Positions 2,395 to 22,935 of a stretch of DNA of 64,000 nt are shown here, piece by piece. The stretch spans positions 1,122-65,121 of the forward strand of contig JBBRAZ010000017.1 in NCBI GenBank assembly GCA_038206295.1, in the 5' to 3' direction. The first letter of the stretch is position 1. The number at the start of each line of letters is the position of its first letter. The DNA is from Acidimicrobiales bacterium. Lineage in GTDB: Bacteria; Actinomycetota; Acidimicrobiia; Acidimicrobiales; JBBRAZ01. The notes under the pieces are model-generated. The model ran no database searches. It was not told the origin of the DNA and saw nothing but the letters and a program-made list of their open reading frames with translations. The translations under genes were made by a program, and so were the position numbers.

Positions 2395-2994
2395 ATGACG
2401 ACCTGGTTCACCGCCGACCTGCATCTCGGCCACCGCAACATCATCGACTACTGCAAGCGCCCCTTCGACGGCGTCGAGTCAATGGACCGCGACCTCGTCG
2501 AACGCTGGAACGAGGTCGTTCACGACGAGGACACGGTCTGGATCCTCGGCGACTTCGCCCTTGGCAAGCTCAGGGAGACGCTCCCGCTGGCCGGCGAGCT
2601 GCGCGGGCGCCTGATCCTGCTCACCGGCAACCACGACCGCTGCTGGGTCGGCCACGGCCGCAGGGCCCAGGGCTGGTCCGACCGGTACCTGGAAGCCGGG
2701 TTCGCCGAGGTCCACCACGGAACCGCGACGATCCAGATCGCCAGCACGCAGGTTCGGCTCTGCCACTTCCCCTACCGGGGCGACAGCCACCGCCGCGACC
2801 GCTACCTCGCACACCGCCCGACCGATGACGGCGCCTGGCTCCTGCACGGCCACGTCCACGACCGCTGGGGCCAGAGCGGACGGATGATCAACGTGGGTGT
2901 CGACGTCACGGACTTCCGCCCGATCAGCGAGGCCGCGATCGCTGCGGTCATCGCCGAAGGGCCCACACGGCGCGACCAGCTTCCCTTGCCTTGA
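2395..2994 (+). CDS. Calcineurin-like metallophosphoesterase (phage-type, COG4186-like)
   Basis: Metal-binding motifs ADLHLGH, LGDF, GNHD, CHFP and LHGHVH. Confidence 0.9.
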   Translation: MTTWFTADLHLGHRNIIDYCKRPFDGVESMDRDLVERWNEVVHDEDTVWILGDFALGKLRETLPLAGELRGRLILLTGNHDRCWVGHGRRAQGWSDRYLEAGFAEVHHGTATIQIASTQVRLCHFPYRGDSHRRDRYLAHRPTDDGAWLLHGHVHDRWGQSGRMINVGVDVTDFRPISEAAIAAVIAEGPTRRDQLPLP

Positions 2995-3651: not shown

Positions 3652-3716
3652 GCCAGCTCCCGCTTGGACGGGCGTCATCTCTGCACCGGCCGACGTGAGC
3701 TCGTAGCTTGCGGGCC

Positions 3717-6700
3717 GTGGACGAGCTGCCGGCGGGCCTGTACGAGGTGCTCGTCACCGAGGGGCTGAAGGCCCGCCTGGATGCACTCGCCGATGCCGTC
3801 CCGACTGAGCAGGGCGCACTCCATGCTGCGGAGGCACCCGACCGCATCGCCTGGCACCTGAGCCGCGAGATCGAGCGGGCGCTCTCCGACGTCCGTGAGC
3901 CCAACCGAGCCCGGGTCGGCATCGAGGTGGCCCGAGCACTGCTTGATCGCCTCGGCGAGCTGGTCGAGGTCGACGCGTCAATCGCCCCGGTCGACCCGGC
4001 CACGGTCCTGCACGCAATCCTCGGCCGCCGCCCCGACGGCAGCCCCGAGACCCTTGCCGAGCCGTTGATCCCCCTGCTCGACACGACCCTGCTCACGAAC
4101 GCGCCTGGCGAGCCGAACCTCTGGAACCAGCTGCGGTCCGAGATCGAATCGGCCGACCGCATCGACGTCGTCATGGCGTTCATCCGCCGCACCGGCATCG
4201 CACCGCTGCTCGACGCCCTCCGCCACCACCGCGGCAAGGACCGTCAGCTCCGAGTGCTTACGACGACCTACACCGGGTCGACGGAGAAGGCGGCGCTGGA
4301 ACAGCTCGTCGACCTCGGCGCCGACGTTCGGGTGTCCTACGACCTGAGTACGACCCGCCTGCACGCCAAAGCGTGGGTGTTCCACCGCCGCTCCGGCTTC
4401 TCCACTGCGTACGTCGGCTCGTCGAACCTGACGCATTCGGCACAGGTCACCGGCATCGAGTGGAACGTCCGAGCATCTGCCGCCCGCAACCCCGATGTGA
4501 TCGCCAAGTTCGGCGCCGTGTTCGAGAGCTACTGGTCCAGCGGCGACTACCTCCCCTATGACCCCGAGCAGTTCGAGGACGAGCAGCGCCGTGCCGGGCG
4601 AACGGACTCCGGGCCGCTGGTGATCTTGAGTCCGATCGAGCTGCGACCGCTCCCCTTCCAGGAACGACTCCTCGAGTTGGTGGCGGTAGCTCGTGAGCGC
4701 GGCCACCACCGCAACCTTCTCGTGTCCGCGACCGGCACCGGCAAGACCGTGATGGCCGCGCTCGACTACGCCGGCCTGCGCGAGCAGCTCGACCGCTCAC
4801 GGCTGCTGTTCATCGCGCACCGCGAGGAGATCCTCGATCAGAGCCTCGCCACCTTCCGCTACGCGCTGCGTGACGCGTCCATTGGCGAGAAGTGGGTCGG
4901 TGGCGCACGACCGACCCGCTTCGAGCACGTCTTCGCGTCGATCCAGAGCCTGAGCGCCTCCGGGCTCGACGCGCTGGCCGCCGATCACTTCGATGTGGTG
5001 ATCGTGGACGAGTTCCACCACGCCGCCGCCGGGTCCTACGAGAAGGTGCTCAACCACCTCGAGCCCGTCGAGCTCCTCGGCCTGACCGCAACACCCGAGC
5101 GCAGCGACGGGCTGCCGATCCTGGGGTGGTTCGACGATCGCATCGCCGCCGAGCTTCGGCTGTGGGACGCCATCGACCAGCAGCACCTGGCGCCGTTCCT
5201 CTACTTCGGCATCCACGACGGCCTCGACCTCACCGACATCCCGTGGCGGCGCGGTCGGGGCTACGAGATCGAGGCGCTCACCAACCGCTACACCAGCTCT
5301 GACGCGTGGGCCCGCCTCGTGGTGAAGCAGGTCAACGACCACGCCGACGTTGGCTCGATGCGGTGTCTCGGGTTCTGCGTGAGCGTTGAGCACGCTCAGT
5401 TCATGGCCCGGCACTTCAACCACCACGGCATCGCGTCCGTGGCGGTGTGGGGCGACAGTCCACGAGCGGACCGCGAGGCCGCCTTGCGGGACCTCGCCGC
5501 GGGCGACGTCAAGGTCGTGTTCTCCGTCGACCTGTTCAACGAGGGTGTCGACGTCCCCAACGTCGACACCGTGCTGATGCTGCGCCCGACCGAGAGTCCG
5601 GTGCTGTTCCTCCAGCAACTCGGCCGCGGGCTGCGCAAGGCAAAGGGCAAGTCGTACTGCACGGTGCTGGACTTCGTCGGCACCCACCGCAAGGAGTTCC
5701 GCTTCGACCGCCGCTACCGCGCCCTGCTCGGCGGCACCCGGCGCGACGTCGAGCGAGCCGTGCAGATGCAGTTCCCGTTCCTGCCCGCCGGCTGCAACAT
5801 GCAACTCGACGAGAAGGCCGCCGAGATCGTCCTGCGCAGCCTCCGCGAAGCCATCCCATCACAGTGGAAGGCCAAGGTCGACGAACTGCGATCGCTGCGC
5901 CGCGAGCGCCCCGGCATCGGCCTGGCTGAGTTCCTGGACGAGAGCGGGCTCGACCTCGACGACCTCTACGCCAACTCCAAGAGCTGGTCAGACCTGATCG
6001 AGGCCGCTGACGGAGCGGTTCTTCCGGCGGGCTCGGACGAGCCGGTCCTGCGGCGGGCCGTCGGTCGACTCCTGCACGTCGACGACGCGGAGCGCATCGC
6101 CACCTATCGCCAGCTCCTGGCGAGCGAACGCCCCCAGGTTCGTGACCTACCGGAGCGCACTCGGCGGCTCGTCCACATGCTCGTTGCCGCACTCGCCGAC
6201 CAGGCGCTCACGAAGGATGCCTCGCTCCAGGATGCCGTCGACCTCGTGTGGTCACATCCGCAGGTCGTCGCCGAGCTGGCCGAGCTGTTCGGTGTCCTCG
6301 ATCACCGAATCGACCACCTCCACCAGCCGCTCGCCACCCACCCGGACTCGCCACTGCAGATCCACGCCCGCTACAGCCGCATCGAGATCCTCGCCGCCAT
6401 GGGCCTCGGAGGCGACCGAGCCAAGATCGCCGCCTGGCAGAGCGGCGTGTACGAAGCCAAGCCCGCCAACGCCGAGCTGCTCGCGTTCACGCTCGACAAG
6501 AGCAGCGGCGGTTTCTCCCCCACTACCCGCTATCGCGACTACGCCGTCAGCCGCACGCTGATCCACTGGGAGAGCCAATCGGCCACGCGCGAAGACAGCC
6601 CGACTGGCCTGCGGTACCGGGACCACGAGCGAGATGGCCGCACCATCCTGCTGTTCACCCGACTCCGAGCCGACGACCGTGCGTTCTGGTTCCTCGGCCC

Positions 6701-6809
6701 TGCCACCTACCGAGGCCACGTCGGAGAGAAGCCCATGGCCATCACCTGGGAGCTCGACGTCCCACTCCCCGGCGACCTCTACGCCGCCTTCGCCGCCGCT
6801 GTCGCCTAG
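3717..6809 (+). CDS. PLD nuclease - SF2 helicase - DUF3427 protein (SauUSI-like modification-dependent restriction enzyme)
   Basis: PLD HxK motif RLHAKAWVF...GSSNL, Walker A SATGTGKT, DEFHH, LTATPER, helicase C-domain VDLFNEGVDVP/QQLGRGLR, C-terminal YRDYAVS..LIHWESQ. Start GTG 3717, 7 nt after TAGCTT. Confidence 0.88.
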   Translation: MDELPAGLYEVLVTEGLKARLDALADAVPTEQGALHAAEAPDRIAWHLSREIERALSDVREPNRARVGIEVARALLDRLGELVEVDASIAPVDPATVLHAILGRRPDGSPETLAEPLIPLLDTTLLTNAPGEPNLWNQLRSEIESADRIDVVMAFIRRTGIAPLLDALRHHRGKDRQLRVLTTTYTGSTEKAALEQLVDLGADVRVSYDLSTTRLHAKAWVFHRRSGFSTAYVGSSNLTHSAQVTGIEWNVRASAARNPDVIAKFGAVFESYWSSGDYLPYDPEQFEDEQRRAGRTDSGPLVILSPIELRPLPFQERLLELVAVARERGHHRNLLVSATGTGKTVMAALDYAGLREQLDRSRLLFIAHREEILDQSLATFRYALRDASIGEKWVGGARPTRFEHVFASIQSLSASGLDALAADHFDVVIVDEFHHAAAGSYEKVLNHLEPVELLGLTATPERSDGLPILGWFDDRIAAELRLWDAIDQQHLAPFLYFGIHDGLDLTDIPWRRGRGYEIEALTNRYTSSDAWARLVVKQVNDHADVGSMRCLGFCVSVEHAQFMARHFNHHGIASVAVWGDSPRADREAALRDLAAGDVKVVFSVDLFNEGVDVPNVDTVLMLRPTESPVLFLQQLGRGLRKAKGKSYCTVLDFVGTHRKEFRFDRRYRALLGGTRRDVERAVQMQFPFLPAGCNMQLDEKAAEIVLRSLREAIPSQWKAKVDELRSLRRERPGIGLAEFLDESGLDLDDLYANSKSWSDLIEAADGAVLPAGSDEPVLRRAVGRLLHVDDAERIATYRQLLASERPQVRDLPERTRRLVHMLVAALADQALTKDASLQDAVDLVWSHPQVVAELAELFGVLDHRIDHLHQPLATHPDSPLQIHARYSRIEILAAMGLGGDRAKIAAWQSGVYEAKPANAELLAFTLDKSSGGFSPTTRYRDYAVSRTLIHWESQSATREDSPTGLRYRDHERDGRTILLFTRLRADDRAFWFLGPATYRGHVGEKPMAITWELDVPLPGDLYAAFAAAVA

Positions 6810-7239
6810 CACATGGGGCTGCGTGTCCGAGGGCCGACGCACACGCTGGCCCCGCGACGTCTTGGGAGGGGGAGGTTCCAGACGGCATGAGCCATACGAG
6901 ACCGCCTACGGGACGCGCTCACTCGCTTCGGCGCTGTGGCCCATCTGTTACCGAATGGGCTCAGACTGATGGCACTGATCGTGACGGTCGGAGCTTGCCA
7001 CCGTTCTGGCCGATGACGACTGACGGAGACCGTGGACGACTTCGCCACCCAGTCGCCCGCCGCTCTTGGTGATGGTGCTCCTTGAAATAGCCGAGCAGGC
7101 GGCGACCGTCGCTGATTTGCGTTGGTGTCGAAGCGGGCTTCATGGTCGCCCCCCTTGTACTCGTAACCGACGCCGAGCGCCACTATGACGAGGCGCCGGG
7201 GCCTTGACTGAGGCTCGGCCACGAATCGCCAGCTGCTAC

Positions 7240-8001
7240 TCAGAGTGCGGTGAAGCGGTGACCGGACTCAAGGCCAATCTCGAGCCCAGGGAATCCGAGC
7301 ACCTTGGCCGAATAGTCGTGATACGACGCAGCCCAACGCATCTTGTCGCTCGCTCGAGGATTACTCTTGCAGGCGGCAAGCCTTGTCACGACCGCCTCCT
7401 TATGCCGCTGCAACATGAACTCCGGCGCACCGCTCTTGAGACTCCACGCAAGGTAATGAACGAAGCACTGCCCATCCTCATCCACAAGGAGGCTCCCGAA
7501 CTCAACGGCGGGATCATCGGAGGCTTCCGTTACGGCATCACCGAACGTCGCTAGCACAGCCTCCGAGATCGTTATCCTCGGCCAGTGCGCCACACTTGAT
7601 TCAGCAGCATACGCAGCATTCAGGCCGCTTCCAAAGACAAATTCTGGCCCGATCGCTAACGAGCCCTTCTCGACGCCACCTCGAAGGAACAGGGTGTCCA
7701 CAGCGAAAGCCAACTGAAATGCAGCAAGCTCGTCGACAACCCATGCCAGCGCAGGGTTCACTTCCTGATTCGACGATGCATAGGTGGGCCAACTCAACAC
7801 CGTGTTATCGGTGAAAGCGACACTCTCGAAATTGGGGGACTCACCAAGAAAGTCTCGCACTCGCTGCCGGGCAGAGATGAGCCTGCCGAGGCCTGCGTCC
7901 TCGTCCCCGTCCATCGCCCTCGTCCCTAGAACGTCAATGAATGCCACAACGCACTCCCGAAGTTCAATACCTGCTACAGATCCCATTGTGGCTTCAACCA
8001 T
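7240..8001 (-). CDS. Divergent class III nucleotide-cyclase-like (palm-fold) protein
   Basis: FIDVLG (first metal Asp), AFTDN (second Asp), FLRGGVEKG, GSGLNAAYAAESSVAHWPRI; the ATG immediately follows the TGA of the upstream gene (8002-8004). Confidence 0.7.
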   Translation of the reverse strand: MVEATMGSVAGIELRECVVAFIDVLGTRAMDGDEDAGLGRLISARQRVRDFLGESPNFESVAFTDNTVLSWPTYASSNQEVNPALAWVVDELAAFQLAFAVDTLFLRGGVEKGSLAIGPEFVFGSGLNAAYAAESSVAHWPRITISEAVLATFGDAVTEASDDPAVEFGSLLVDEDGQCFVHYLAWSLKSGAPEFMLQRHKEAVVTRLAACKSNPRASDKMRWAASYHDYSAKVLGFPGLEIGLESGHRFTAL

Positions 8002-9099
8002 TCAAGATGCTGGAAGTCCCACACCAAGCCGTTCCCGGAGTACAGAAGCACCCCGGATCAGATCGGATTGGAAGGAACTAAGACGATCGATAATGGAATC
8101 CATCACCTGAGTAGCATTCCGGGCGGATCGAGAAAAGTCTCGATTGAGTCTCTGATCACGGAGCTCCTGCAGCGTCGTTCGCATCGACCTAATTCCCGTA
8201 AGGCCGCCGTCGAGACCCTGACTCAATCCCTCGAGGTTCTCCATGAGCTTCTGGGCAGATTCCCGGTCCGAAGGATCTTCCAGCGGCGCTAGCTCGAAGA
8301 TGTCCATTAGGCTTTCGGAAATCGCCGGTGCAACTAACCCAAGAAGTTCGTCGTATGTGTCCAGCTCTTCCTTGTACCAATCGAGATCCTTTGCCGCTCG
8401 TCGAAGAACGGCAAGTGCCTTCGCCGTGTGTCCGGGAGACGCTGCAGTCTGCAGGTCCTGCACCTCAGCCGTACGAGTGACGAAGCGCTCTCCGATCTCC
8501 CGCGTTGCTGTCGATACTGCGATTGTCCCGTTCGATAGGTTTTCAAGGCGATCTTGGTTTTCAATAAGATGATCCAGAAGTCCGGCCGGCTCATCTTCCT
8601 CTATATGCACGAGAGACGAAGGCGCTCCTAGCGACTCATGAGAGTCTTTGTCGAAGAAGTCTTGGACAGGGCTCGAATACTTGATTGTACCGTCTTGGAC
8701 AGCTCGCGCAATCGATTTCAGTGAGTCGATAAGCCCGCCTATGGCTGCAAAGTGCGGGGAGTACTTGATCAATCGGTATGACCGAAGATCAAATGGAACC
8801 TGATCGATATCTTGGGTCAAGATGACTGTGGGCTTTCCGAGAGCATGGGCGATGCCAAGCTCGTACATTACGTTTGGGTTTCTCGAGGAGATTTCTGCAA
8901 CCACAAGGTCAGCTTGGCTGATCCCGTGGACAATCGCGGCAAGGATGTTCTGAAGATCGAGCTCATCGGCTCTCGCGACCACGAATCCCTCTTGCTCCAG
9001 GGTCGGTTTGATTAGCTGCGAATAGATCTCTGTGTACTCAGTGTCGATTGGGGAAAGCACAAACGCGTTCGGCTTGCGCTCCTCCACTGCGGCTGTCAT
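8002..9099 (-). CDS. Nucleoside-deoxyribosyltransferase/TIR-like N-terminal domain + long helical C-terminal region (365 aa)
   Basis: AFVLSP, RAD, ISQADLVVAEISSRNPNVMYELGIAHALGKPTVIL and PFDL motifs; ATG 9099 with a GGAGG RBS; C-terminal part amphipathic/helical. Confidence 0.8.
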   Translation of the reverse strand: MTAAVEERKPNAFVLSPIDTEYTEIYSQLIKPTLEQEGFVVARADELDLQNILAAIVHGISQADLVVAEISSRNPNVMYELGIAHALGKPTVILTQDIDQVPFDLRSYRLIKYSPHFAAIGGLIDSLKSIARAVQDGTIKYSSPVQDFFDKDSHESLGAPSSLVHIEEDEPAGLLDHLIENQDRLENLSNGTIAVSTATREIGERFVTRTAEVQDLQTAASPGHTAKALAVLRRAAKDLDWYKEELDTYDELLGLVAPAISESLMDIFELAPLEDPSDRESAQKLMENLEGLSQGLDGGLTGIRSMRTTLQELRDQRLNRDFSRSARNATQVMDSIIDRLSSFQSDLIRGASVLRERLGVGLPAS

Positions 9100-9220
9100 C
9101 AAGAACCTCCGTCGTGGGTGCGAGGCTAGTAACACAGCACCGTCAAACTGCATGGACCCTAGCTGGCAGGGCGGTTCGATCAGCGAACGGGCCCCGGACC
9201 CGCAGATCGGATCCGCCTGC

Positions 9221-9556
9221 TCATGGCACGACCCACCCTACTGACCGAAGCCAGTCGACCTCGCGGGGACTGAGCTCCCTGGTCCCGTGTTTCCATGACC
9301 CATCAATGTTGAGTGCGGATCCATCGCGAAAGTGGATCTGGGGTACCTCCGCGCCCGAGTTGTTGATGCCGTCGACGCGCTGCACCGACGACGGTCGGCC
9401 TGTGCGCCGCCGAGCCAACCCCACGGCCACCTGCCAGTGCACCTTCAGATGCTCGAAATCTGCAACGTGACGACACTCGACGACCGCGCCGTCCGGATCA
9501 GATGCGCCTATCACCGGATCACACCACTTCGCGCACGAGCAGGGCCAGCTCAATGC
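9221..9556 (-). pseudogene. 3' fragment of IS-interrupted Menshen NsnC-like effector gene
   Basis: In frame with the 5' fragment once the IS and one target-site copy are removed (...HHLGGW|AL|SWPCSCAKW...); ends RVDGINNSGAEVPQIHFRDGSALNIDGSWKHG...GWVVP*. Confidence 0.75.
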
Positions 9557-10967
9557 GGCGCTTCGCGGATGAGCGGGGTGGGGTGAGGGGCTGAGGGTCC
9601 CGGGCGCGGTACAGGGGCTCAACGAGTCTGGAGATGTCTGACGTCTCTAGATCGAGGAGCCCCTGTGTCTTCTGATGCTACGCGCATGTGCGAGCTGCTG
9701 GTCGGCCTGCCCGACGTGGACGTGCTCGACGTCGTGGAGACCGCCGACGCCCTGGTGGTCACGATCGCGACGCGTGGCGCCCGGCCGTCGTGCCCGGCGT
9801 GTGCGGGTGCGGTGGTGCTCAAGGACCGCACCGATGTCGCGCACGCGGATCTGCCGTGCTTCGGGCGTCGCACGACGCTGGTGTGGCGCAAGGCCCGCTG
9901 GGCGTGCCCCGACGCGCTGTGCGCGGTGGGGTCGTTCACCGAGCAGGCGCCCGCCATCGCAGCACCCCGGTTGGCGATCACCGATCGGGCGGGGCGGTGG
10001 GTGACGATGCAGGTCGGTCGCCACGGCCGCTCGGTGAGCGAGGTCGCTGAGGATCTGGGGTGCGGGTGGCACGCGGTGATGGACGCCGTGATCGCGTACG
10101 GCGCCGTGCTGGTCGATGACCCGGCCCGCTTCGGTGCGGTCGCCGCGATCGGCCTCGATGAGACGCTGCGCTGCCGGGTCGGACCGTGGCGTGAGCAGCA
10201 GTGGTCCACCCAGATCGTCGATGTCGGCGCCGGGCAGCTCCTCGACGTCGTTGCGGGGCGCTCCGCTGCGGGGCCGTGCAACTGGTTCGCTGCACGCAGC
10301 GACGAGTGGCTCGATGCTGTGGCGTGGGGGGCCCTGGACCTGTCGGGGCCGTACCGCAAGGTGTTCGACACGATGCTGCCCGCAGCTGTGCAGGTCGCGG
10401 ATCCGTTCCACGTGGTCAAGCTGGCGAACACGAAGCTCGACGAGTGCCGTCGCCGCGTGCAGAACGAGACCCTCGGGCACCGCGGCCACAAGCACGACCC
10501 GCTGTACCGGTGCAGGCGGCTGCTCACCCGCGCCGATGAACGCCTCGACGCGAAGGGCCGCTCGAAGCTCCTCGGTCTCCTGGAGGCCGGCGACCCGCGC
10601 GGTGAGGTCCGCACCGCGTGGCACGCGAAGGAGACGGTGCGCTCCATCTACGACCTCCTCGACGCCGACGTCGCCCTCGAGTTCGTCACCCGCCTCGGCC
10701 ACGACCTCCAAGACGAGGACTGCCCACCGGAGGTCCGCCAGCTCGGCCGCACCATCGTGCGGTGGCGTCACCAGATCGCCGCGTGGCACCAGTCGCATGT
10801 GAGCAACGGACCGACCGAAGCGGTCAACAACCTCGTCAAGCGCGTGAAGCGCGTCGCGTTCGGGATCACGAACTTCGTCAACTACCGGATCCGCGCTCTG
10901 CTCTACGCCGGCAAGCCCAACTGGGACCTACTCGCGACGGTCACACCCCGCTGAAACGCGAAGCGCC
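9557..10967 (+). mobile_element. ISL3-family insertion sequence (1411 bp)
   Basis: Left IR GGCGCTTCGCGGATGAGCGGGGTG (9557-9580) vs right IR reverse complement GGCGCTTCGCGTTTCAGCGGGGTG (10944-10967), 21/24 identical; 8-bp direct repeat CTCAATGC at 9549-9556 and 10968-10975. Confidence 0.93.
9665..10954 (+). CDS. ISL3-family transposase
   Basis: Zinc-finger CPAC...WACPDALC, DDE-type motifs GLDET, ALDLS and SNGPTEAVN, plus DPFHVV; intact 429-aa ORF. Confidence 0.93.
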   Translation: MSSDATRMCELLVGLPDVDVLDVVETADALVVTIATRGARPSCPACAGAVVLKDRTDVAHADLPCFGRRTTLVWRKARWACPDALCAVGSFTEQAPAIAAPRLAITDRAGRWVTMQVGRHGRSVSEVAEDLGCGWHAVMDAVIAYGAVLVDDPARFGAVAAIGLDETLRCRVGPWREQQWSTQIVDVGAGQLLDVVAGRSAAGPCNWFAARSDEWLDAVAWGALDLSGPYRKVFDTMLPAAVQVADPFHVVKLANTKLDECRRRVQNETLGHRGHKHDPLYRCRRLLTRADERLDAKGRSKLLGLLEAGDPRGEVRTAWHAKETVRSIYDLLDADVALEFVTRLGHDLQDEDCPPEVRQLGRTIVRWRHQIAAWHQSHVSNGPTEAVNNLVKRVKRVAFGITNFVNYRIRALLYAGKPNWDLLATVTPR

Positions 10968-11290
10968 CTCAATGCCCAGCCACCCAGATGATGGGCCGAC
11001 GAAAGTCCGCGAGCTGAAGTGCCCCTCCATCTCAGCTGACCGGCCGAGCGCGGGCCACGGGCGTTCGTGGCTCCCTCCAACAGCAGAACGACCTTGTCGC
11101 GCTTCGGGCCCTTCCGGACCTCGTCGTACTCGTCGGAGCACTTGAGGCGCTGAACCAATGGGCCGCCGTCGACTATCAGCCATCCCCGAACTTGATCGAG
11201 CAACCCGATCAAGCGACCTGCCTCAACTTGGTCGCCACAGCACGCGAGCGACAACTCGTTGAACGCAAACGCCTTATCAGGGTGGGGCAC
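10968..11290 (-). pseudogene. 5' fragment of IS-interrupted Menshen NsnC-like effector gene
   Basis: GTG 11290 with GAGGTGAGG RBS, 12 bp after the ATPase stop; 105 codons up to the target duplication (MPHPDKAFAFNELS...HHLGGW). Confidence 0.75.
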
Positions 11291-11302
11291 GACCTCACCT
11301 CA

Positions 11303-12427
11303 CTAGTTGGCGAAGTCTGCCAGCGCCGAAAGAGACTCGAGGTACTGATCGAAGAAGCCGTCTGGCCAGTGCGCGATCTGACCGGCGACGTCGATCACGA
11401 GTGGTTCAAACCGCGATTCCCCACCCTCGACCCGCGAGAAGTAGACCAGGCTCACGTCGCGCGGCTTAAGTGTCCCTTCGGCCACTCCGAGTCGAATCGC
11501 GTTGAGAACGTGATCGCTATGTGTCTCGACCACGACCTGTGCGCCTGCCCTAGCGCAAGCTACGCACAGCCTCGCAAGGTGGCCTTGGCCACGTGGGTGA
11601 AGGTGCGACTCCGGGTTCTCTACGAGAAGGAGGTCGCCGCGCCGAGCGGAGAGACAGGCAACGATGACGGGCAGCGCATAGCTGAGCCCAAACCCAACGT
11701 TGGTCGCACGATGCGGCCTTCCCGAGCTGAGTCCGGTCAGAGGACCGTCGGAGAAGCGAACGACAGCCGAACCCGTACCGGCCAGGTTGCTGGGGTAGAT
11801 CCGGGTATCGCTCGAGATCAGCTCTAACCACGCACCACACTGCTGCTCGAGGGACTTTCCCACCCCGGGCAAACGAAGCGGCGCTGCTACATCCTCGCTG
11901 CCGCGCGTAAGCAACAGGTGAACGGCATACTCGCCGCGTGGGCCAACGCTACGACTTCCCACGACGGCTGAGTGGGACTTCTGGTGAACAAGCGTCGGGC
12001 CGAGACGATCGGCGCGAACGTACTCAAGATGTTTCCACGGAATGTCAACGCGGATCGGATCGTCGCGGTCCTGGAGCGGGATGAAATCGGCATCGGACTG
12101 AGCCGAGCCGCCGAAGTGCCGCCATGGACTGCTCGTCGAGCGAATCCCAACCTCCAGCACCTGTGGTCCCTGCTCACGCGCCGGAGCAGCATCGGGCCTA
12201 TCGAACAGTACGTCCTCGTAGTCGCCCAGCTCAATCAAGTCACCGTTGAGTACGAATCCGGGCGGGTCCTGGTCACGAGATTGCTCCAAGAGGACAATGG
12301 CATGCATCACGGACGACTTTCCCGACGAGTTCGTTCCAGTGAGGACGGTGAGCTTGCCTAATCGAACGTCGAGCCGACGAAACCCCTTGAAATTCGTCAA
12401 TCGGAGATCGTGAATTCGCCCAGTCAC
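11303..12427 (-). CDS. AAA_21/ABC-type ATPase with DUF3696-like C-terminus (Menshen NsnB-like)
   Basis: LTNFKGF, Walker A GTNSSGKSS, signature VGFGLSYALP, Walker B LVENPESHLHP, ETHSDH and C-terminal HWPDGFFDQ. Confidence 0.85.
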   Translation of the reverse strand: MTGRIHDLRLTNFKGFRRLDVRLGKLTVLTGTNSSGKSSVMHAIVLLEQSRDQDPPGFVLNGDLIELGDYEDVLFDRPDAAPAREQGPQVLEVGIRSTSSPWRHFGGSAQSDADFIPLQDRDDPIRVDIPWKHLEYVRADRLGPTLVHQKSHSAVVGSRSVGPRGEYAVHLLLTRGSEDVAAPLRLPGVGKSLEQQCGAWLELISSDTRIYPSNLAGTGSAVVRFSDGPLTGLSSGRPHRATNVGFGLSYALPVIVACLSARRGDLLLVENPESHLHPRGQGHLARLCVACARAGAQVVVETHSDHVLNAIRLGVAEGTLKPRDVSLVYFSRVEGGESRFEPLVIDVAGQIAHWPDGFFDQYLESLSALADFAN

Positions 12428-13620
12428 CGCAGCGCCCTTCCAACCTTCTCGTGGCGCAGATGGACCTTCCGATAGTCACCTGTGCCTTGAGAGATCGAGG
12501 CGAGGAACTCGGGGTCCTCAAGCAGTACCTTGAATCGCTTCTGCACCGTCGCCTTCCGAGAGCCCAGCTTCTTTCGGTCAGCCACTGACTTCGCAGATAT
12601 CGCGACCATCACCGTCTCGAACAGAGCCTTGTTGATCGGCGCTCGGCGAGGATCGCCCGGAAGGCTTTTCCGGAATGCATGTTCGCCGAACAGCGCAGAG
12701 GCCACACCCAAGCTTCCCTTGAACAGCGACGAGAAGGAGCGCCTCTTCGCCGCCGTCATCGAGCTCAACGCCTTCAGGCCACCAGTAAGGAACCCGTCGA
12801 AATCGGTCGACCGAGAGTATGACTCAACGCCCTGTACGTGGAAGGCCGCGTAGCGAAGGATGATCTCTCGATCCTCCATCCTGTCGCTTCGCACGCGCCC
12901 ACCAGTCGCCTTCTTGAACTCGTCGCTTTCAGCGAGCGTCCCAAGCAGGATGCGACCTTCGCCCGGCGTCAACGCGTGGCGAAGCTCCTGACGTGTCAGA
13001 GGTGCACCACCCGTGTTGATCCGAGCAAAGATGTTGAACATCACTGGCTCGGGTGTGCCGCGCCGAATCAGGTTGAGCACAAACTCAGTCTCCTGGATCC
13101 GTGTCTGGAGACTCGGTCCAAGGTCTTCGTAGGTCAGCCCCTCATACTGAGACAGGTACTCCAGGCTCCGCAGCTGTCGGAAGGATGAGCCCGGCAGAAG
13201 GTCCGGTTCGACGAAGCTCGCGATGGTGGAGATGCGCTGGACGCCATCAACCACGATCCACTTGTCATCGCCGGTCTGCGACTCGGCCGCGTACATCGTC
13301 GGAAGTGGAATCCGTAGCAGGAGAGACTCGATCAGTCGACTCTTTCGTTGAAGGTTCCAGATTCCCGACTTCCGCTGAAAGTCAGGTTCCAGATCGAGGC
13401 GGCCGGACCGCAGGCGGGACAGAAGCAGGTTGACGTTTGGCGTTCGCTGGACGACATCAATGTCCTCGGGATCGAACGGATTGACGATCGGCTCCAGCGA
13501 TGGATCGTCGAGCTCTGGCTCGAAGTCTTCGTCCTGGCTCGTATCCTCGAGTGTGGGCATCGCGTTAGCTCGCAGCGGGTCGGAGGGTCCGAAAATCACG
13601 GAAGGTACGGCCGAAGCCAC
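12424..13620 (-). CDS. DUF262 (ParB/Srx-like, GmrS-like) protein (Menshen NsnA-like)
   Basis: PDFQR, LIESLLLRIP, VDGVQR, FARINTGG and LTRQELR motifs; 4-bp overlap (ATGA) with the ATPase gene; alternative start ATG 13560. Confidence 0.87.
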   Translation of the reverse strand: MASAVPSVIFGPSDPLRANAMPTLEDTSQDEDFEPELDDPSLEPIVNPFDPEDIDVVQRTPNVNLLLSRLRSGRLDLEPDFQRKSGIWNLQRKSRLIESLLLRIPLPTMYAAESQTGDDKWIVVDGVQRISTIASFVEPDLLPGSSFRQLRSLEYLSQYEGLTYEDLGPSLQTRIQETEFVLNLIRRGTPEPVMFNIFARINTGGAPLTRQELRHALTPGEGRILLGTLAESDEFKKATGGRVRSDRMEDREIILRYAAFHVQGVESYSRSTDFDGFLTGGLKALSSMTAAKRRSFSSLFKGSLGVASALFGEHAFRKSLPGDPRRAPINKALFETVMVAISAKSVADRKKLGSRKATVQKRFKVLLEDPEFLASISQGTGDYRKVHLRHEKVGRALR

Positions 13621-13917: not shown

Positions 13918-14004
13918 TGGTGTCGGAGGGGGGACTTGAACCCCCACGTCCTTGCGGACACTAGCCCCTCAAGCTAGCGCGTCTACCTATTCCGCCACTC
14001 CGAC
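13918..14004 (-). tRNA. tRNA-Leu(GAG)
   Basis: Acceptor stem GTCGGAG/CTCCGAC + A-CCA, anticodon arm CTAGC-TTGAGGG-GCTAG, long variable arm, GTTCAA T-loop. Confidence 0.96.
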
Positions 14005-21055: not shown

Positions 21056-22935
21056 TTCGTCTCCGGTCCCTTCGGTCGCGTGCCCGCGGCGTGCAGGTGC
21101 TCGTACAGCCCCGCCGCGACTGCGTCGGGCAGCCACGACAGCGCCTGCAGGTCCTCCAGCGTCGCGCGCTGCACCGCCCGCACCCCGCCCAGCTCCTTCA
21201 CCAGCCGCTTGCGCCGCGCCTCGCCCAGCCCCGGCACCCCGTCGAGCACCGAGCGCGTCATGCGCTTGCCGCGGAGCTGACGGTGGTACGCGATCGCGAA
21301 CCGGTGGGCCTCGTCCCGCACCCGCTGCAGCAGGTACAGCGCCTCGGTCCCCCGGGCGATGCGCACCGGCTCCGGGTCGCCCGGCAGGTACACCTCCTCG
21401 AAGCGCTTCGCCAGCGACGCCACCGGGATCTCCCCGCGCAGCCCCAGCTCGTCGAGCACCCGCACCGCGACGCTCAGCTGCCCCTTGCCGCCGTCCACCA
21501 GCAGCAGCTGCGGCGGGTAGGCGAAGCGCCCGCGCTCCTCGATCGGCAGCGCTCGGTCCGCCAGGTACGCAGTGAGGCGCCGGCGCAGCACCTCCTCCAT
21601 CGCCGCGAAGTCGTCGTTGCCCTCCACCGTGCGGATCTTGAACCGCCGGTACTCCGACGGCCGCGGCTGGCCGTCCTCCAGCACCACCATCGACCCCACG
21701 TAGTCGGTGCCCTGCAGGTGGCTCATGTCGTAGCACTCGATGCGCAGCGGCGACTCCGGCAACCCGAGCGCCTCCTGCAGCTCGTTGAGGGCCCGCGCCC
21801 GCGTGTTGTGGTCCGACGCCCGGCGCATCCGGTGCCGGCGCAGCTCCTCGGCCGCGTTCGCCACCACCGTCTCGCTGAGCTGGCGCTTGTCGCCGCGCTG
21901 GGGCACCCGCACCGACACCTTGGTGCCGCGCATCGAGGTCAACCACGCCTCCAGCAGCTCGGTCTCCGACGTCGGCGACGACACCAGCACCTCGCGCGGC
22001 ACCCCCATCGGCGGGTCGTCGTACAGCCGCTCGAGCACCGAGTCCACCAGCTCGGCGTCGCTCAGGTCCTCCACGCGGTCCACGATCATCCCCTTGCGCC
22101 CCACCACTCGGCCGCGCCGCACCAGGAACACCGCCACGGCCCACTGCAGCTCGTCGCCTGCGAACCCCACCAGGTCCAGGTCCTCGTCGCGCTCGGCCAC
22201 GATCTGCTGGCGCTCGACGGCCTTGCGCACCGCGGCGAGCCGGTCGCGCAGCCGCGCCGCGCGCTCGAAGTCCAGGTCGGCCGCCGCCGCGCCCATCTCA
22301 GACTCGAGCCGCTCCACCACCTCGTCGGTGTCGCCGTCGAGGAACGAGCACAGCTCGGCCACCAGCTCGCGGTAGCGCTCCGGGGTCACCTCCCCCACGC
22401 AGGGCCCTGCGCACTTCTCGATGTGGAACAGCAGGCACGGCCGGCCCAGCGCCTCGTGGCGCCGCAGCTTGGTGTCCGAGCACGTGCGGATCGGGAACGT
22501 GCGCAGCAGCAGGTCGAGCGTCTCGCGGATCGCGTACGCCTGGCCGAAGGGCCCCCAGTACCGCACGCCGGGCTTCTTCGTCCCGCGCAGCACCATCGCC
22601 CGCGGCCACGTGTCGGCCTCGGTGATCGCCAGCCACGGATAGCTCTTGTCGTCGCGCAGCCGCACGTTGAACCGCGGCTGGTGCGCCTTGATCAGCTCGT
22701 TCTCCAGCAGCAGCGCGTCGACCTCGTTCTCGACGGTGATCCACTCCACCGTCGCCGCTGCGGCCACCAGCTGCGCGGTGCGCGGCGCCAGGGTGGCGGG
22801 GTCTGCGAAGTAGTTGGCCAGGCGGCTGCGCAGGCTCTTCGCCTTGCCCACGTACAGGACGCGACCGTGCGCGTCCTTGAACTGGTACGAGCCGGGCTGA
22901 TCGGGGATCGACCCGGTGGGAGGGCGCTCCACCAC
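21052..22935 (-). CDS. uvrC: Excinuclease ABC subunit C
   Basis: GIY-YIG YVGKAKSLRSR, NVRLRDDKSYP, ECYDMSH, LVDGGKGQ, RDEAHRFA and HhH. Confidence 0.97.
   Translation of the reverse strand: MVERPPTGSIPDQPGSYQFKDAHGRVLYVGKAKSLRSRLANYFADPATLAPRTAQLVAAAATVEWITVENEVDALLLENELIKAHQPRFNVRLRDDKSYPWLAITEADTWPRAMVLRGTKKPGVRYWGPFGQAYAIRETLDLLLRTFPIRTCSDTKLRRHEALGRPCLLFHIEKCAGPCVGEVTPERYRELVAELCSFLDGDTDEVVERLESEMGAAAADLDFERAARLRDRLAAVRKAVERQQIVAERDEDLDLVGFAGDELQWAVAVFLVRRGRVVGRKGMIVDRVEDLSDAELVDSVLERLYDDPPMGVPREVLVSSPTSETELLEAWLTSMRGTKVSVRVPQRGDKRQLSETVVANAAEELRRHRMRRASDHNTRARALNELQEALGLPESPLRIECYDMSHLQGTDYVGSMVVLEDGQPRPSEYRRFKIRTVEGNDDFAAMEEVLRRRLTAYLADRALPIEERGRFAYPPQLLLVDGGKGQLSVAVRVLDELGLRGEIPVASLAKRFEEVYLPGDPEPVRIARGTEALYLLQRVRDEAHRFAIAYHRQLRGKRMTRSVLDGVPGLGEARRKRLVKELGGVRAVQRATLEDLQALSWLPDAVAAGLYEHLHAAGTRPKGPETK

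What the first reader, a model, noticed from the sequence alone, without database searches (positions are those of the whole stretch)
7240..9099. Unassigned two-gene module: NDT/TIR-like glycosidase-helical protein abutting a divergent class III cyclase-like protein (candidate new nucleotide-signalling defence system)
Seen: the two genes are directly adjacent (TGA 8004-8002, then ATG 8001) and A/T-richer than the host (hand count 34/60 GC at 8701-8760 vs 46/60 at 21121-21180 in uvrC). They sit inside a defence island. The upstream protein keeps the NPNVMYELG motif. The downstream protein keeps both metal-binding Asp residues (FIDVLG, FTDN) and the Asn, but has Ala where class III cyclases have the transition-state Arg (GLNAAYAAES vs VNxAxR). 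Established: the YELG Glu is the catalytic residue of NDT/TIR-type N-glycosidases; Pycsar pairs a class III cyclase with an effector carrying a cNMP-binding domain; CBASS uses CD-NTases. Neither partner type is visible here. Inference: either the palm enzyme makes a non-canonical nucleotide signal read by the NDT/TIR-helical protein (the helical region acting as sensor or oligomeriser), or the two act sequentially on the nucleotide pool.
Basis: partly seen in the sequence, partly recalled or inferred. Interest (0 to 1): 0.85.

Follow-up and report, generated by a model that had tools for sequence, protein, structure and literature searches.

The report
Rare cyclase-fold plus nucleotide-glycosidase gene pair
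Two tightly joined, horizontally acquired genes in a bacterial defence island encode a nucleotide-cleaving enzyme and a re-tooled relative of cyclic-nucleotide cyclases; the pair is real, rare and unnamed, but each partner usually lives alone, so a signalling defence system is possible rather than shown.

Summary
Gene A (8002-9099, minus strand) and gene B (7240-8001, minus strand) abut (TGA then ATG). They form a 55% GC patch in a 70% GC window and lie among AbiE, a PLD-helicase, an ISL3 element and a DUF262/ATPase pair.

Gene A has an NDT/DNPH1-type N-glycosidase domain (Pfam above cut-off, fold confirmed, invariant YELG glutamate) followed by a generic four-helix bundle. Gene B has no Pfam, NCBIfam or PADLOC match, yet folds with high confidence (pLDDT 94) as a class III cyclase catalytic domain. 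Both metal-binding aspartates and the phosphate-binding arginine are kept. The transition-state arginine is lost.

The pair recurs as a coupled operon in three other places, one of them wrecked by IS elements, and the two genes diverge together. Outside this clade the families do not travel together. None of 80 loci with gene A relatives has the cyclase-fold gene, and 1 of 77 loci with gene B relatives has an NDT gene. Gene B's family is very large (4,865 clusters), often monocistronic, found on plasmids and absent from phages.

Best reading (about 0.4): a defence module in which the palm enzyme's nucleotide product controls the glycosidase effector. Main rival: two stand-alone modules that are merely co-transcribed.

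The parts
8002..9099 (-). Gene A, 365 aa (stop 8004-8002): an NDT/DNPH1-type N-glycosidase domain followed by a four-helix bundle.
   Evidence: ORF and translation. Pfam PF05014 scores 34.6 bits against a cut-off of 28.8. PADLOC PDLC00733 'Effector/TIR' E 1e-8. AF2 pLDDT 88.7. Foldseek top hits are NDT, DNPH1 and BcmB.
9106..9110 (-). Shine-Dalgarno GGAGG, 6 nt before ATG 9099. It supports the 365-aa start rather than the 383-aa ORF start at 9153.
   Evidence: Read from the sequence. The database protein P0005 also has 365 aa.
8695..9072 (-). NDT-like Rossmann-type domain of gene A (residues 10-135).
   Evidence: AF2 secondary structure. Foldseek TM (target-normalised) up to 0.77 to DNPH1.
8854..8880 (-). 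NPNVMYELG motif (residues 74-82) with the predicted catalytic nucleophile Glu80.
   Evidence: N74, N76, V77, Y79, E80 and G82 are invariant in 50 family members. The region aligns to Rcl/DNPH1 residues 66-100.
8026..8580 (-). C-terminal bundle of four ~45-residue helices (residues 174-358). Residues 153-168 before it are low-confidence in the model (pLDDT below 50).
   Evidence: AF2 model. Only generic helical-bundle or coiled-coil matches in the PDB. The domain is shared with solo family members.
7240..8001 (-). Gene B, 253 aa (stop 7242-7240): a class III nucleotidyl-cyclase-fold palm enzyme with a C-terminal helical extension.
   Evidence: No Pfam, PADLOC or NCBIfam hit. AF2 pLDDT 94, pTM 0.91. 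The top 50 Foldseek PDB hits are all class III adenylyl/guanylyl cyclases, E from 3.5e-6. A profile search finds 4,865 clusters.
7924..7941 (-). FIDVLG (residues 21-26): first metal-binding Asp (D23) on strand beta1.
   Evidence: D23 and G26 are invariant in 60 family members. It aligns to the FADIVGFT motif of mycobacterial cyclases.
7804..7815 (-). FTDN (residues 63-66): second metal-binding Asp (D65).
   Evidence: D65 is invariant. It lies in the beta-hairpin 59-72 of the model.
7675..7686 (-). LRGG (residues 106-109): Arg107, equivalent to the phosphate-binding Arg of the class III 'VRIGxHxG' motif.
   Evidence: R107 and G108 are invariant. hhalign places it on the VRIG of a Guanylate_cyc protein.
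7597..7626 (-). GLNAAYAAES (residues 126-135). Asn128 is kept, Ala132 replaces the transition-state Arg, and Glu134 is invariant.
   Evidence: hhalign column mapping. Family alignment.
7300..7425 (-). Family-specific C-terminal helical extension (residues 193-234) carrying the conserved H200, K220, W223, Y227 and H228.
   Evidence: AF2 helices 193-210 and 215-234. K220 and W223 are invariant; H200, Y227 and H228 are nearly invariant.

Best explanation
The pair is a horizontally acquired, translationally coupled two-gene operon. It is most likely an anti-phage (abortive-infection type) module built on nucleotide chemistry.

Gene A is the effector. Its NDT/DNPH1-type domain, with Glu80 as nucleophile, would cleave the N-glycosidic bond of a nucleotide or of NAD+ and so starve the phage. 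The four-helix bundle would mediate oligomerisation or regulation.

Gene B is a metal-dependent nucleotidyl-transfer enzyme with a class III cyclase fold. It keeps the two-Asp metal site and the phosphate-binding Arg but lacks the transition-state Arg. It carries a conserved helical extension that may complete the active site within one chain. It would therefore turn an NTP into a non-canonical nucleotide product. In this clade that product, or gene B itself, controls gene A, either switching it on during infection or holding it off until the product is lost.

Shown: the folds, the conserved catalytic residues, the conserved coupled operon, the foreign base composition and the defence-island setting. 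Inferred: the enzymatic activities, the product, the direction of control and the defence role itself.
For: - Folds and catalytic residues.
- Conserved operon. In the window the stop and start abut. In L001 the gap is 4 nt. In L002/L003 the genes overlap by 11 nt. In L004 both genes are present but broken by two IS elements. Gene A is 41-61% identical and gene B 40-51% identical across these loci, so the two diverged together.
- Gene B's clade is a 100/100-supported group on a long stem branch of 1.26.
- The pair is lower in GC than its flanks in all four loci. It is absent from 60 same-order genomes, and gene B-type proteins occur in only 2 of 401 genomes of the phylum.
- Context: a defence island here. 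Elsewhere the pair sits next to Fic, a serine recombinase (read from the translation), or an integrase and TrwC.
- All 50 gene A family members match the effector domain of PADLOC model PDLC00733.
- A CMP-hydrolase-type domain is the predicted signal-activated effector of type VIII Thoeris (bioRxiv 10.64898/2025.12.03.692087).
- Gene B's family is on 58 plasmids but on 0 of 50,697 phage records, and is nearly absent from IMG/VR. Its tight neighbours are often Abi-type genes.
Against: - Outside the small clade the two families do not co-occur.
- Gene B's relatives are often monocistronic. Examples are the B. cereus plasmids, and 26 of 56 loci have no tight same-strand neighbour.
- Gene A's relatives usually have no conserved partner and sit alone inside type I R-M loci or next to TIR-Mrr.
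- Gene A's helical domain is the same in paired and solo members, so no dedicated signal-sensing domain (cNMP-binding, SAVED, CARF, SLOG) is visible.
- The second NDT association (a Clostridia MAG) is phylogenetically separate, and its sister is solo, so it may be chance.
- There is no experimental or expression evidence.
Confidence: 0.4

Rival explanations
1. The pair is two independent single-gene accessory or defence modules that became co-transcribed in one mobile cassette. Each works alone and there is no biochemical cross-talk.
For: Both families are overwhelmingly found without the other. Gene B relatives are monocistronic on Bacillus plasmids. Gene A relatives sit alone in R-M loci. 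Neighbours of gene B's family are a changing set of solo-capable Abi-type genes (AbiH, Abi_alpha, FRG, HEPN, HNH_2, DUF3800), as expected for island co-residence.
Against: The adjacency with start/stop coupling survives divergence down to 41-51% identity in four loci, in different flanking contexts. No close homologue of this gene B clade was found without gene A. The clade sits on a long stem branch, suggesting a functional shift.
Confidence: 0.3
2. The two enzymes attack the nucleotide pool in sequence. Gene B converts (d)NTPs into a monophosphate-type or cyclic product and releases pyrophosphate. Gene A, like DNPH1 or BcmB, which act on (d)NMPs, then removes the base, making the depletion irreversible.
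For: Gene A's best structural matches by TM-score are DNPH1 and CMP N-glycosidase BcmB, which are nucleoside-monophosphate hydrolases. Gene B keeps the metal and phosphate-binding residues but lacks the residue that stabilises the cyclisation transition state. The coupled translation fits a stoichiometric enzyme pair.
Against: Cells already contain NMPs and dNMPs, so gene A would not need gene B. This matches the many solo gene A relatives. Constitutive activity would be toxic, and no regulator is visible in the module (no third gene).
Confidence: 0.12
3. This is toxin-antitoxin-like control by direct protein contact. Gene B acts as a sensor or neutraliser that sequesters the gene A glycosidase, much as retron RT-msDNA sequesters its NDT-like effector, and its catalysis is secondary.
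For: Translational coupling and a toxin-like first gene. Some gene B relatives carry antitoxin-style N-terminal HTH_37 or HTH_17 domains. Retrons pair a palm-domain polymerase with NDT-like effectors (papers listed; mechanism from my own knowledge).
Against: The invariance of D23, D65 and R107 across a family of thousands argues that catalysis matters. Solo gene A relatives have no such neutraliser.
Confidence: 0.1
4. The pair has a non-defence role, for example nucleoside modification or salvage, or a secondary-metabolite step, as with the CMP glycosidases BcmB and MilB in nucleoside-antibiotic pathways.
For: NDT-family enzymes have metabolic roles, and BcmB is among the structural matches.
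Against: No biosynthetic neighbours appear in any of the four loci. The contexts are mobile or defence genes. The pair has a patchy, horizontally transferred distribution.
Confidence: 0.05

Closest known systems
Pycsar (PycC class III-type pyrimidine cyclase plus PycTM or PycTIR effector)
   Same: A two-gene module that pairs a class III cyclase-fold enzyme with an effector whose enzymatic domain is of the TIR/NDT type. It is found in defence islands.
   Different: Gene B and 59 relatives match no PADLOC model convincingly (one weak hit, to PDC-M02A), so no PycC model either if PADLOC carries them (own knowledge), and they do not match Pfam Guanylate_cyc. The transition-state Arg is missing. 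Gene A has no cNMP-binding domain. The effector gene comes first. Both families are mostly solo.
Class III adenylyl/guanylyl cyclase catalytic domain (Pfam PF00211; for example CyaC, Rv1625c, Cya2)
   Same: The fold matches: the top 50 PDB hits have a target-normalised TM of 0.5-0.68. The two metal Asp residues, the VRIG-type Arg and the G..A...ES helix are shared.
   Different: There is no significant sequence match (PDB profile E 0.2-0.6; no Pfam hit). The Asn/Arg pair is not conserved across the family. There is an extra conserved helical extension with the motif K-x-x-W-x-x-x-Y-H.
DNPH1/Rcl, nucleoside 2'-deoxyribosyltransferases and the CMP N-glycosidase BcmB
   Same: Gene A's N-terminal domain shares their fold and the catalytic Y-E-L-G glutamate.
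   Different: Gene A carries an added 190-residue four-helix bundle. Its substrate is unknown. Its context is defence or mobile DNA rather than metabolism.
Type VIII Thoeris effector ThsI (CMP-hydrolase domain plus TPR, activated by cADPR; bioRxiv 10.64898/2025.12.03.692087)
   Same: An NDT/CMP-hydrolase-type catalytic domain fused to an all-helical domain and partnered with a signal-making enzyme.
   Different: The partner here is a cyclase-fold protein, not a TIR protein. The helical domain is a four-helix bundle, not TPR.
Retron-Eco1 (Ec86) type: reverse transcriptase plus msDNA plus NDT-like effector
   Same: An NDT-like effector is partnered with a palm-domain nucleotidyl-transferase (titles; mechanism from my own knowledge).
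   Different: Gene B is not a reverse transcriptase (cyclase fold). No ncRNA was looked for or seen.
Panoptes (mCpol minimal Cas10-like palm enzyme plus 2TM effector; inhibitory signalling, PMC12657230)
   Same: A small stand-alone palm-domain nucleotide synthase is paired with an effector. It offers a model in which a constitutive product holds the effector off (abstract only).
   Different: The palm subtype differs: the top matches are class III cyclases, not Cas10 or GGDEF. The effector also differs.

Membership tests
Class III nucleotidyl cyclase (PF00211) | Sequence match to the family model above its threshold | tested here: not met
   No Pfam hit for gene B or for any of 59 relatives. 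PDB profile matches to cyclases reach only E 0.19-0.56.
Class III nucleotidyl cyclase (PF00211) | Cyclase-homology-domain palm fold | tested here: met
   AF2 pLDDT 94. The 50 best Foldseek PDB hits are all class III cyclases, E 3.5e-6 to 1.8e-4.
Class III nucleotidyl cyclase (PF00211) | Two metal-binding aspartates | tested here: met
   D23 and D65 are invariant in 60 sequences. D23 aligns to the FADIVGFT Asp.
Class III nucleotidyl cyclase (PF00211) | Transition-state Asn and Arg pair | tested here: not met
   Asn128 is present in this clade only. Position 132 is Ala here, Glu or Met in the two paired relatives, and variable in the wider family.
Class III nucleotidyl cyclase (PF00211) | Active site formed across a dimer; makes a 3',5'-cNMP | not testable with these tools
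   No multimer prediction or biochemistry was available.
Pycsar | Cyclase recognised as PycC | tested here: not met
   No PADLOC match for gene B. Among the 60 relatives there is one weak hit, to PDC-M02A. That PADLOC v2.0.0 carries PycC models is from my own knowledge, not checked here.
Pycsar | Effector with a cyclic-nucleotide-binding domain fused to TM or TIR | tested here: not met
   Gene A has only PF05014 plus a helical bundle. There is no cNMP_binding hit.
NDT/DNPH1 superfamily (PF05014) | Model match above the gathering score | tested here: met
   34.6 bits against a cut-off of 28.8, E 2.2e-8.
NDT/DNPH1 superfamily (PF05014) | Catalytic glutamate nucleophile in the (Y/F)E(L/I)G motif, and the fold | tested here: met
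   E80 is invariant in 50 relatives. Foldseek matches NDT, DNPH1 and BcmB with target-normalised TM up to 0.77.
TIR domain | Match to TIR models or fold better than to NDT | tested here: not met
   No Pfam TIR hit. A TIR structure (SPARTA) appears only at rank 24, E 1e-2, behind NDT and DNPH1. The PADLOC model labelled 'TIR' matches at domain level only.
CBASS | CD-NTase signal synthase in the operon | tested here: not met
   Neither gene matches any PADLOC or Pfam model other than gene A's PF05014 and the PDLC00733 effector domain, so there is no CD-NTase match. Gene B's fold is class III cyclase.
Thoeris type VIII | TIR (ThsB-type) signal producer next to the CMP-hydrolase effector | tested here: not met
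   There is no TIR gene in the module. The neighbours are identified.
Retron with NDT-like effector | Reverse transcriptase and msr/msd RNA | tested here: not met
   No RT domain in either gene or in the flanking genes. The RNA component was not searched for.

The most novel reading that the evidence does not exclude
Gene B would represent a very large, unannotated family (at least 4,865 clusters at 50% identity) of single-chain class III-fold palm enzymes with a re-tooled active site. These enzymes would make a nucleotide messenger not yet described. In this clade the messenger would gate an NDT-type glycosidase, either activating it or, as in Panoptes, holding it off until a phage removes the signal. 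On this reading the pair would be the first case showing which partner the family acts on. It would define a new branch of nucleotide-signalling immunity, parallel to Pycsar, with a new generator and a new receiver domain (the four-helix bundle).
Probability: 0.2. Interest if true: 0.8.

Novelty: new variant of a known kind. Interest (0 to 1): 0.55.

Why it matters
If the two genes are coupled, the pair would extend cyclase-based immunity (Pycsar) to a non-canonical generator and to an N-glycosidase effector with an unknown type of receiver domain.

Whatever the coupling, gene B gives a route into a family of thousands of plasmid- and island-borne cyclase-fold proteins. That family has no Pfam, NCBIfam or PADLOC model and no known product.

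The pair is small (1.9 kb) and easy to test with point mutants, so the question can be settled quickly at the bench.

Tried and rejected
- Word-indexed homologue search for gene B found only itself and one relative. The exhaustive profile search was needed to see the family.
A 20-sequence subset worked, but its search pattern excludes gene B's own clade, so GTDB genomes were not surveyed for the clade itself.
- A third gene in the operon was rejected. ORF 6806-7222 (minus strand) has flat codon-position GC and no conserved counterpart in L001 or L002.
- Cassette boundary repeats: only short chance-level repeats.
- Promoter and terminator scan: no promoter-like site and nothing useful. The only minus-strand terminator-like site lies inside gene A.
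- The idea that the association with NDT genes is ancestral to a wider branch was rejected. The Clostridia protein P0127, flanked by HEPN and NDT genes, is not sister to the clade, and its sister P0199 is solo.
- NDT fusions among longer gene B relatives: none. Two carry HTH domains; several extensions look like over-called starts in high-GC DNA, judged by eye.
- Identity of gene A's helical domain: only compositional matches to helical bundles and coiled coils (MCP, apolipoprotein, syntaxin, ZorA tail).
- Phage-borne homologues (a counter-defence reading): none found.
- Literature searches found no description of the pair or of gene B's family.
Full report
**1. The observation**

The window is high in GC (69.7%). 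The stretch 7240-9099 is a clear low-GC patch (55.4%; gene A 53.8%, gene B 57.7%). Its GC3 is 0.57-0.63, against 0.88 for the adjacent helicase gene.

On the minus strand, gene A starts at ATG 9099, six bases after GGAGG at 9110-9106, and ends at TGA 8004-8002. Gene B starts at the very next base (ATG 8001) and ends at TGA 7242-7240. All quoted motifs are present at the expected residues.

The ORF after gene B (6806-7222) has no coding signature, so the module has two genes.

The surroundings are a defence island next to tRNA-Leu (13918-14004). It holds AbiEi/AbiEii, a PLD-ResIII-DUF3427 helicase-nuclease, an ISL3 transposase and an AAA_15/DUF3696 plus DUF262 pair.

**2. Gene A**

Pfam assigns residues about 45-102 (62-119 of the 383-residue ORF scanned) to Nuc_deoxyrib_tr, above the curated cut-off (34.6 against 28.8 bits). 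PADLOC matches only the effector domain of a generic 'Effector/TIR' model, and all 50 aligned family members do the same.

A model built on 50 relatives (pLDDT 88.7) shows three parts:
- a Rossmann-like domain at residues 10-135;
- a low-confidence stretch (pLDDT below 50) at residues 153-168;
- four helices of about 45 residues each, at 174-358.

Foldseek places the first domain with nucleoside 2'-deoxyribosyltransferases, DNPH1/Rcl and the CMP N-glycosidase BcmB (target-normalised TM up to 0.77). A TIR structure appears only far down the list. N74, N76, V77, Y79, E80, G82 and H85 are invariant across the family. E80 falls in the stretch that aligns to Rcl residues 66-100, which holds its catalytic glutamate (residue identity from my own knowledge).

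The helical half gives only compositional matches to helical bundles and coiled coils.

**3. Gene B**

Gene B has no match in Pfam, PADLOC or NCBIfam, and neither do 59 relatives.

The word-indexed search found only one relative. An exhaustive profile search of 1.84 billion representatives found 4,865 clusters at E<=1e-3 and 1,274 at E<=1e-10, mostly proteins of 250-300 residues.

With 60 of them as the alignment, AlphaFold gives pLDDT 94 and pTM 0.91. The 50 best PDB matches are all class III adenylyl or guanylyl cyclase catalytic domains (E from 3.5e-6). The viral library likewise returns guanylate-cyclase-domain proteins.

Invariant residues are D23, G26, D65, R107, G108, G124, E134, K220 and W223. 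Sequence-profile and profile-profile alignments (the latter weak: probability 16%, E 0.0017) map them as follows:
- D23 falls on the first metal-binding Asp of mycobacterial cyclases.
- R107 falls on the VRIG arginine.
- N128 falls on the cyclase Asn.
- A132 falls on the transition-state Arg.

Across the family, however, position 128 is mostly Ile or Val and position 132 varies. A conserved helical extension (residues 193-234; H200, K220, W223, Y227, H228) has no counterpart in canonical cyclases. I infer that it may replace the second subunit that completes the active site in dimeric cyclases. This was not tested.

The database gene call for this protein (P0003, 224 aa) starts at Met30 and would delete D23. 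Conservation of residues 14-29 in the relatives shows the longer start is correct.

**4. Is the pair a unit?**

Every close relative of gene B that was found lies directly after a gene A relative.

| Locus | Gene A identity | Gene B identity | Junction | Nearby genes |
|---|---|---|---|---|
| L001 | 48% | 49% (47% in the MAFFT alignment) | 4-nt gap | serine recombinase (read from the translation, not Pfam) and a 368-aa gene without Pfam match |
| L002/L003 | 61% | 51% | 11-nt overlap | Fic gene |
| L004 | 41% | 40-46% | both genes cut by IS elements | integrase and TrwC relaxase |

In L004, which lies on a 1.36-Mb contig, gene B is split between residues 114 and 121.

In all four loci the pair is lower in GC than its flanks. 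In a maximum-likelihood tree the three intact gene B proteins form a 100/100 clade on a long stem of 1.26 substitutions per site.

The pair is absent from 60 genomes of the same order. Gene B-type proteins occur in 2 of 401 genomes sampled across the phylum.

The operon is therefore a real, mobile unit in which the two genes have diverged together.

**5. Are the two families generally coupled? No.**

Gene B's family:
- Of 77 genomic loci holding typical gene B relatives, from Proteobacteria, Chlorobi, Bacillota, Acidobacteria and archaea, only one has an NDT gene nearby.
- That locus is a Clostridia MAG with the order HEPN_Cthe2314, cyclase-fold, NDT-like with a different C-terminus.
- Its cyclase-fold protein (P0127) is not sister to the paired clade. 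Its sister (P0199) is monocistronic on B. cereus-group plasmids.
- Neighbours are otherwise heterogeneous: AbiH (three loci), Abi_alpha, FRG, DUF3800, HNH_2, an Mrr-helicase, KAP NTPase, relaxase and coupling-protein genes, and housekeeping genes.
- 26 of 56 loci with enough flank have no tight same-strand neighbour.

Gene A's family:
- Of 80 metagenomic loci with gene A relatives, about 70 of them with the same helical domain, none has a cyclase-fold gene.
- No conserved partner emerges.
- Several relatives sit between hsdS and hsdM of type I R-M systems, or next to a TIR-Mrr protein.

Other points on gene B's family:
- It is on 58 plasmids, always annotated 'hypothetical protein'.
- It is on none of 50,697 phage records and almost absent from IMG/VR.
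- A few members carry N-terminal HTH_17 or HTH_37 domains.

**6. Interpretation**

The folds, catalytic residues, mobility and contexts all fit conflict systems that act on nucleotides.

The conserved coupled operon favours a functional link in this clade. The solo lifestyle of both families, and the lack of a pair-specific sensor domain, argue against an obligate generator-and-receiver design of the CBASS, Pycsar or Thoeris type.

I rank the readings as follows:
- control of the gene A glycosidase by gene B's nucleotide product, or by gene B itself: about 0.4;
- two independent modules that are co-transcribed: about 0.3;
- a sequential attack on the nucleotide pool: about 0.12;
- antitoxin-like sequestration: about 0.1;
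- a metabolic role: about 0.05.

Precedents exist for each element:
- class III cyclases in Pycsar;
- a CMP-hydrolase-type domain as the predicted signal-activated effector of type VIII Thoeris (bioRxiv 10.64898/2025.12.03.692087);
- NDT-like effectors partnered with a palm-domain polymerase in retrons;
- a minimal palm enzyme that signals by inhibition in Panoptes (PMC12657230).

**7. Comparison, novelty and limits**

The pair fails the membership tests for Pycsar: no match to any PADLOC cyclase model, no cNMP-binding effector, and no transition-state Arg. It also fails those for CBASS, Thoeris and retrons.

Gene A is a member of the NDT/DNPH1 superfamily. Gene B has the class III cyclase fold but lies outside the Pfam family.

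No paper describing the pair or gene B's family was found.

I class it as a new variant of a known kind: nucleotide-based defence modules.

Limits:
- Defence itself is inferred from context.
- No multimer prediction was possible.
- GTDB genomes were not surveyed for the paired clade itself.

Noticed in passing
window 2395-2994 (+): A 199-aa ORF with a strong coding signature (GC3 0.91) and an N-terminus 'FTADLHLGH', typical of calcineurin-like metallophosphoesterases. It has no Pfam hit at E<=1e-3. It sits between AbiEii and the PLD-helicase gene.
   Followed up: partly
window 3708-6809 (+): A 1,033-aa PLD nuclease, ResIII/Helicase_C and DUF3427 fusion, a defence-type helicase-nuclease, immediately downstream of the pair on the opposite strand.
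   Followed up: partly
window 9221-13620: A DUF262 (GmrSD_N) gene and an AAA_15/AAA_21-DUF3696 ATPase gene, followed by an ISL3 transposase (9665-10954, +).
   Followed up: partly
window 7240-8001 (database protein P0003): The public gene call for gene B starts at Met30 (224 aa) and removes the conserved FIDVLG strand with the first catalytic Asp. This is an annotation error that would hide the fold.
   Followed up: yes
L004 6001-11431: On a 1.36-Mb contig the same gene pair has been destroyed by two DDE transposase insertions, one in the 3' part of gene A and one between residues 114 and 121 of gene B. It lies next to an integrase and a TrwC relaxase.
   Followed up: yes
L052, L064, L074 (genes starting about 8 nt after the cyclase-fold gene): A 300-aa family recurs directly after the cyclase-fold gene in three proteobacterial genomes (Rhodocyclaceae MAG, Halopseudomonas, Paraburkholderia). 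Three of the scanned neighbours match AbiH, and these three are the likely ones, though the tally does not name its members. This is a second recurrent pairing worth its own look.
   Followed up: partly
L171 2964-5598 and L172: A cyclase-fold family member (P0129) lies between an HNH_2 nuclease gene and, in L171, a short (185 aa) bona fide Guanylate_cyc gene (L172 ends before that gene).
   Followed up: no
L160, L163, L151: Relatives of gene A sit inside type I restriction-modification loci, between hsdS and hsdM in L160 and L163 and just upstream of the methylase gene in L151. This is a typical nesting place for stand-alone defence genes. In L125 the neighbour is a TIR-Mrr fusion.
   Followed up: partly
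P0151, P0200 (relatives of gene B): Some family members carry an N-terminal HTH_17 or HTH_37 domain, and P0217 has what I judged by eye to be a HicB-like N-terminus (no Pfam hit). This hints at autoregulation or antitoxin-like behaviour in parts of the family.
   Followed up: partly
L005/L006 7144-9000: A gene A relative (33% identical) is followed in two independent contigs by a 618-aa protein that, by my reading of its sequence, has a multi-pass membrane N-terminus and an HTH-like C-terminus. It has no Pfam match.
   Followed up: no
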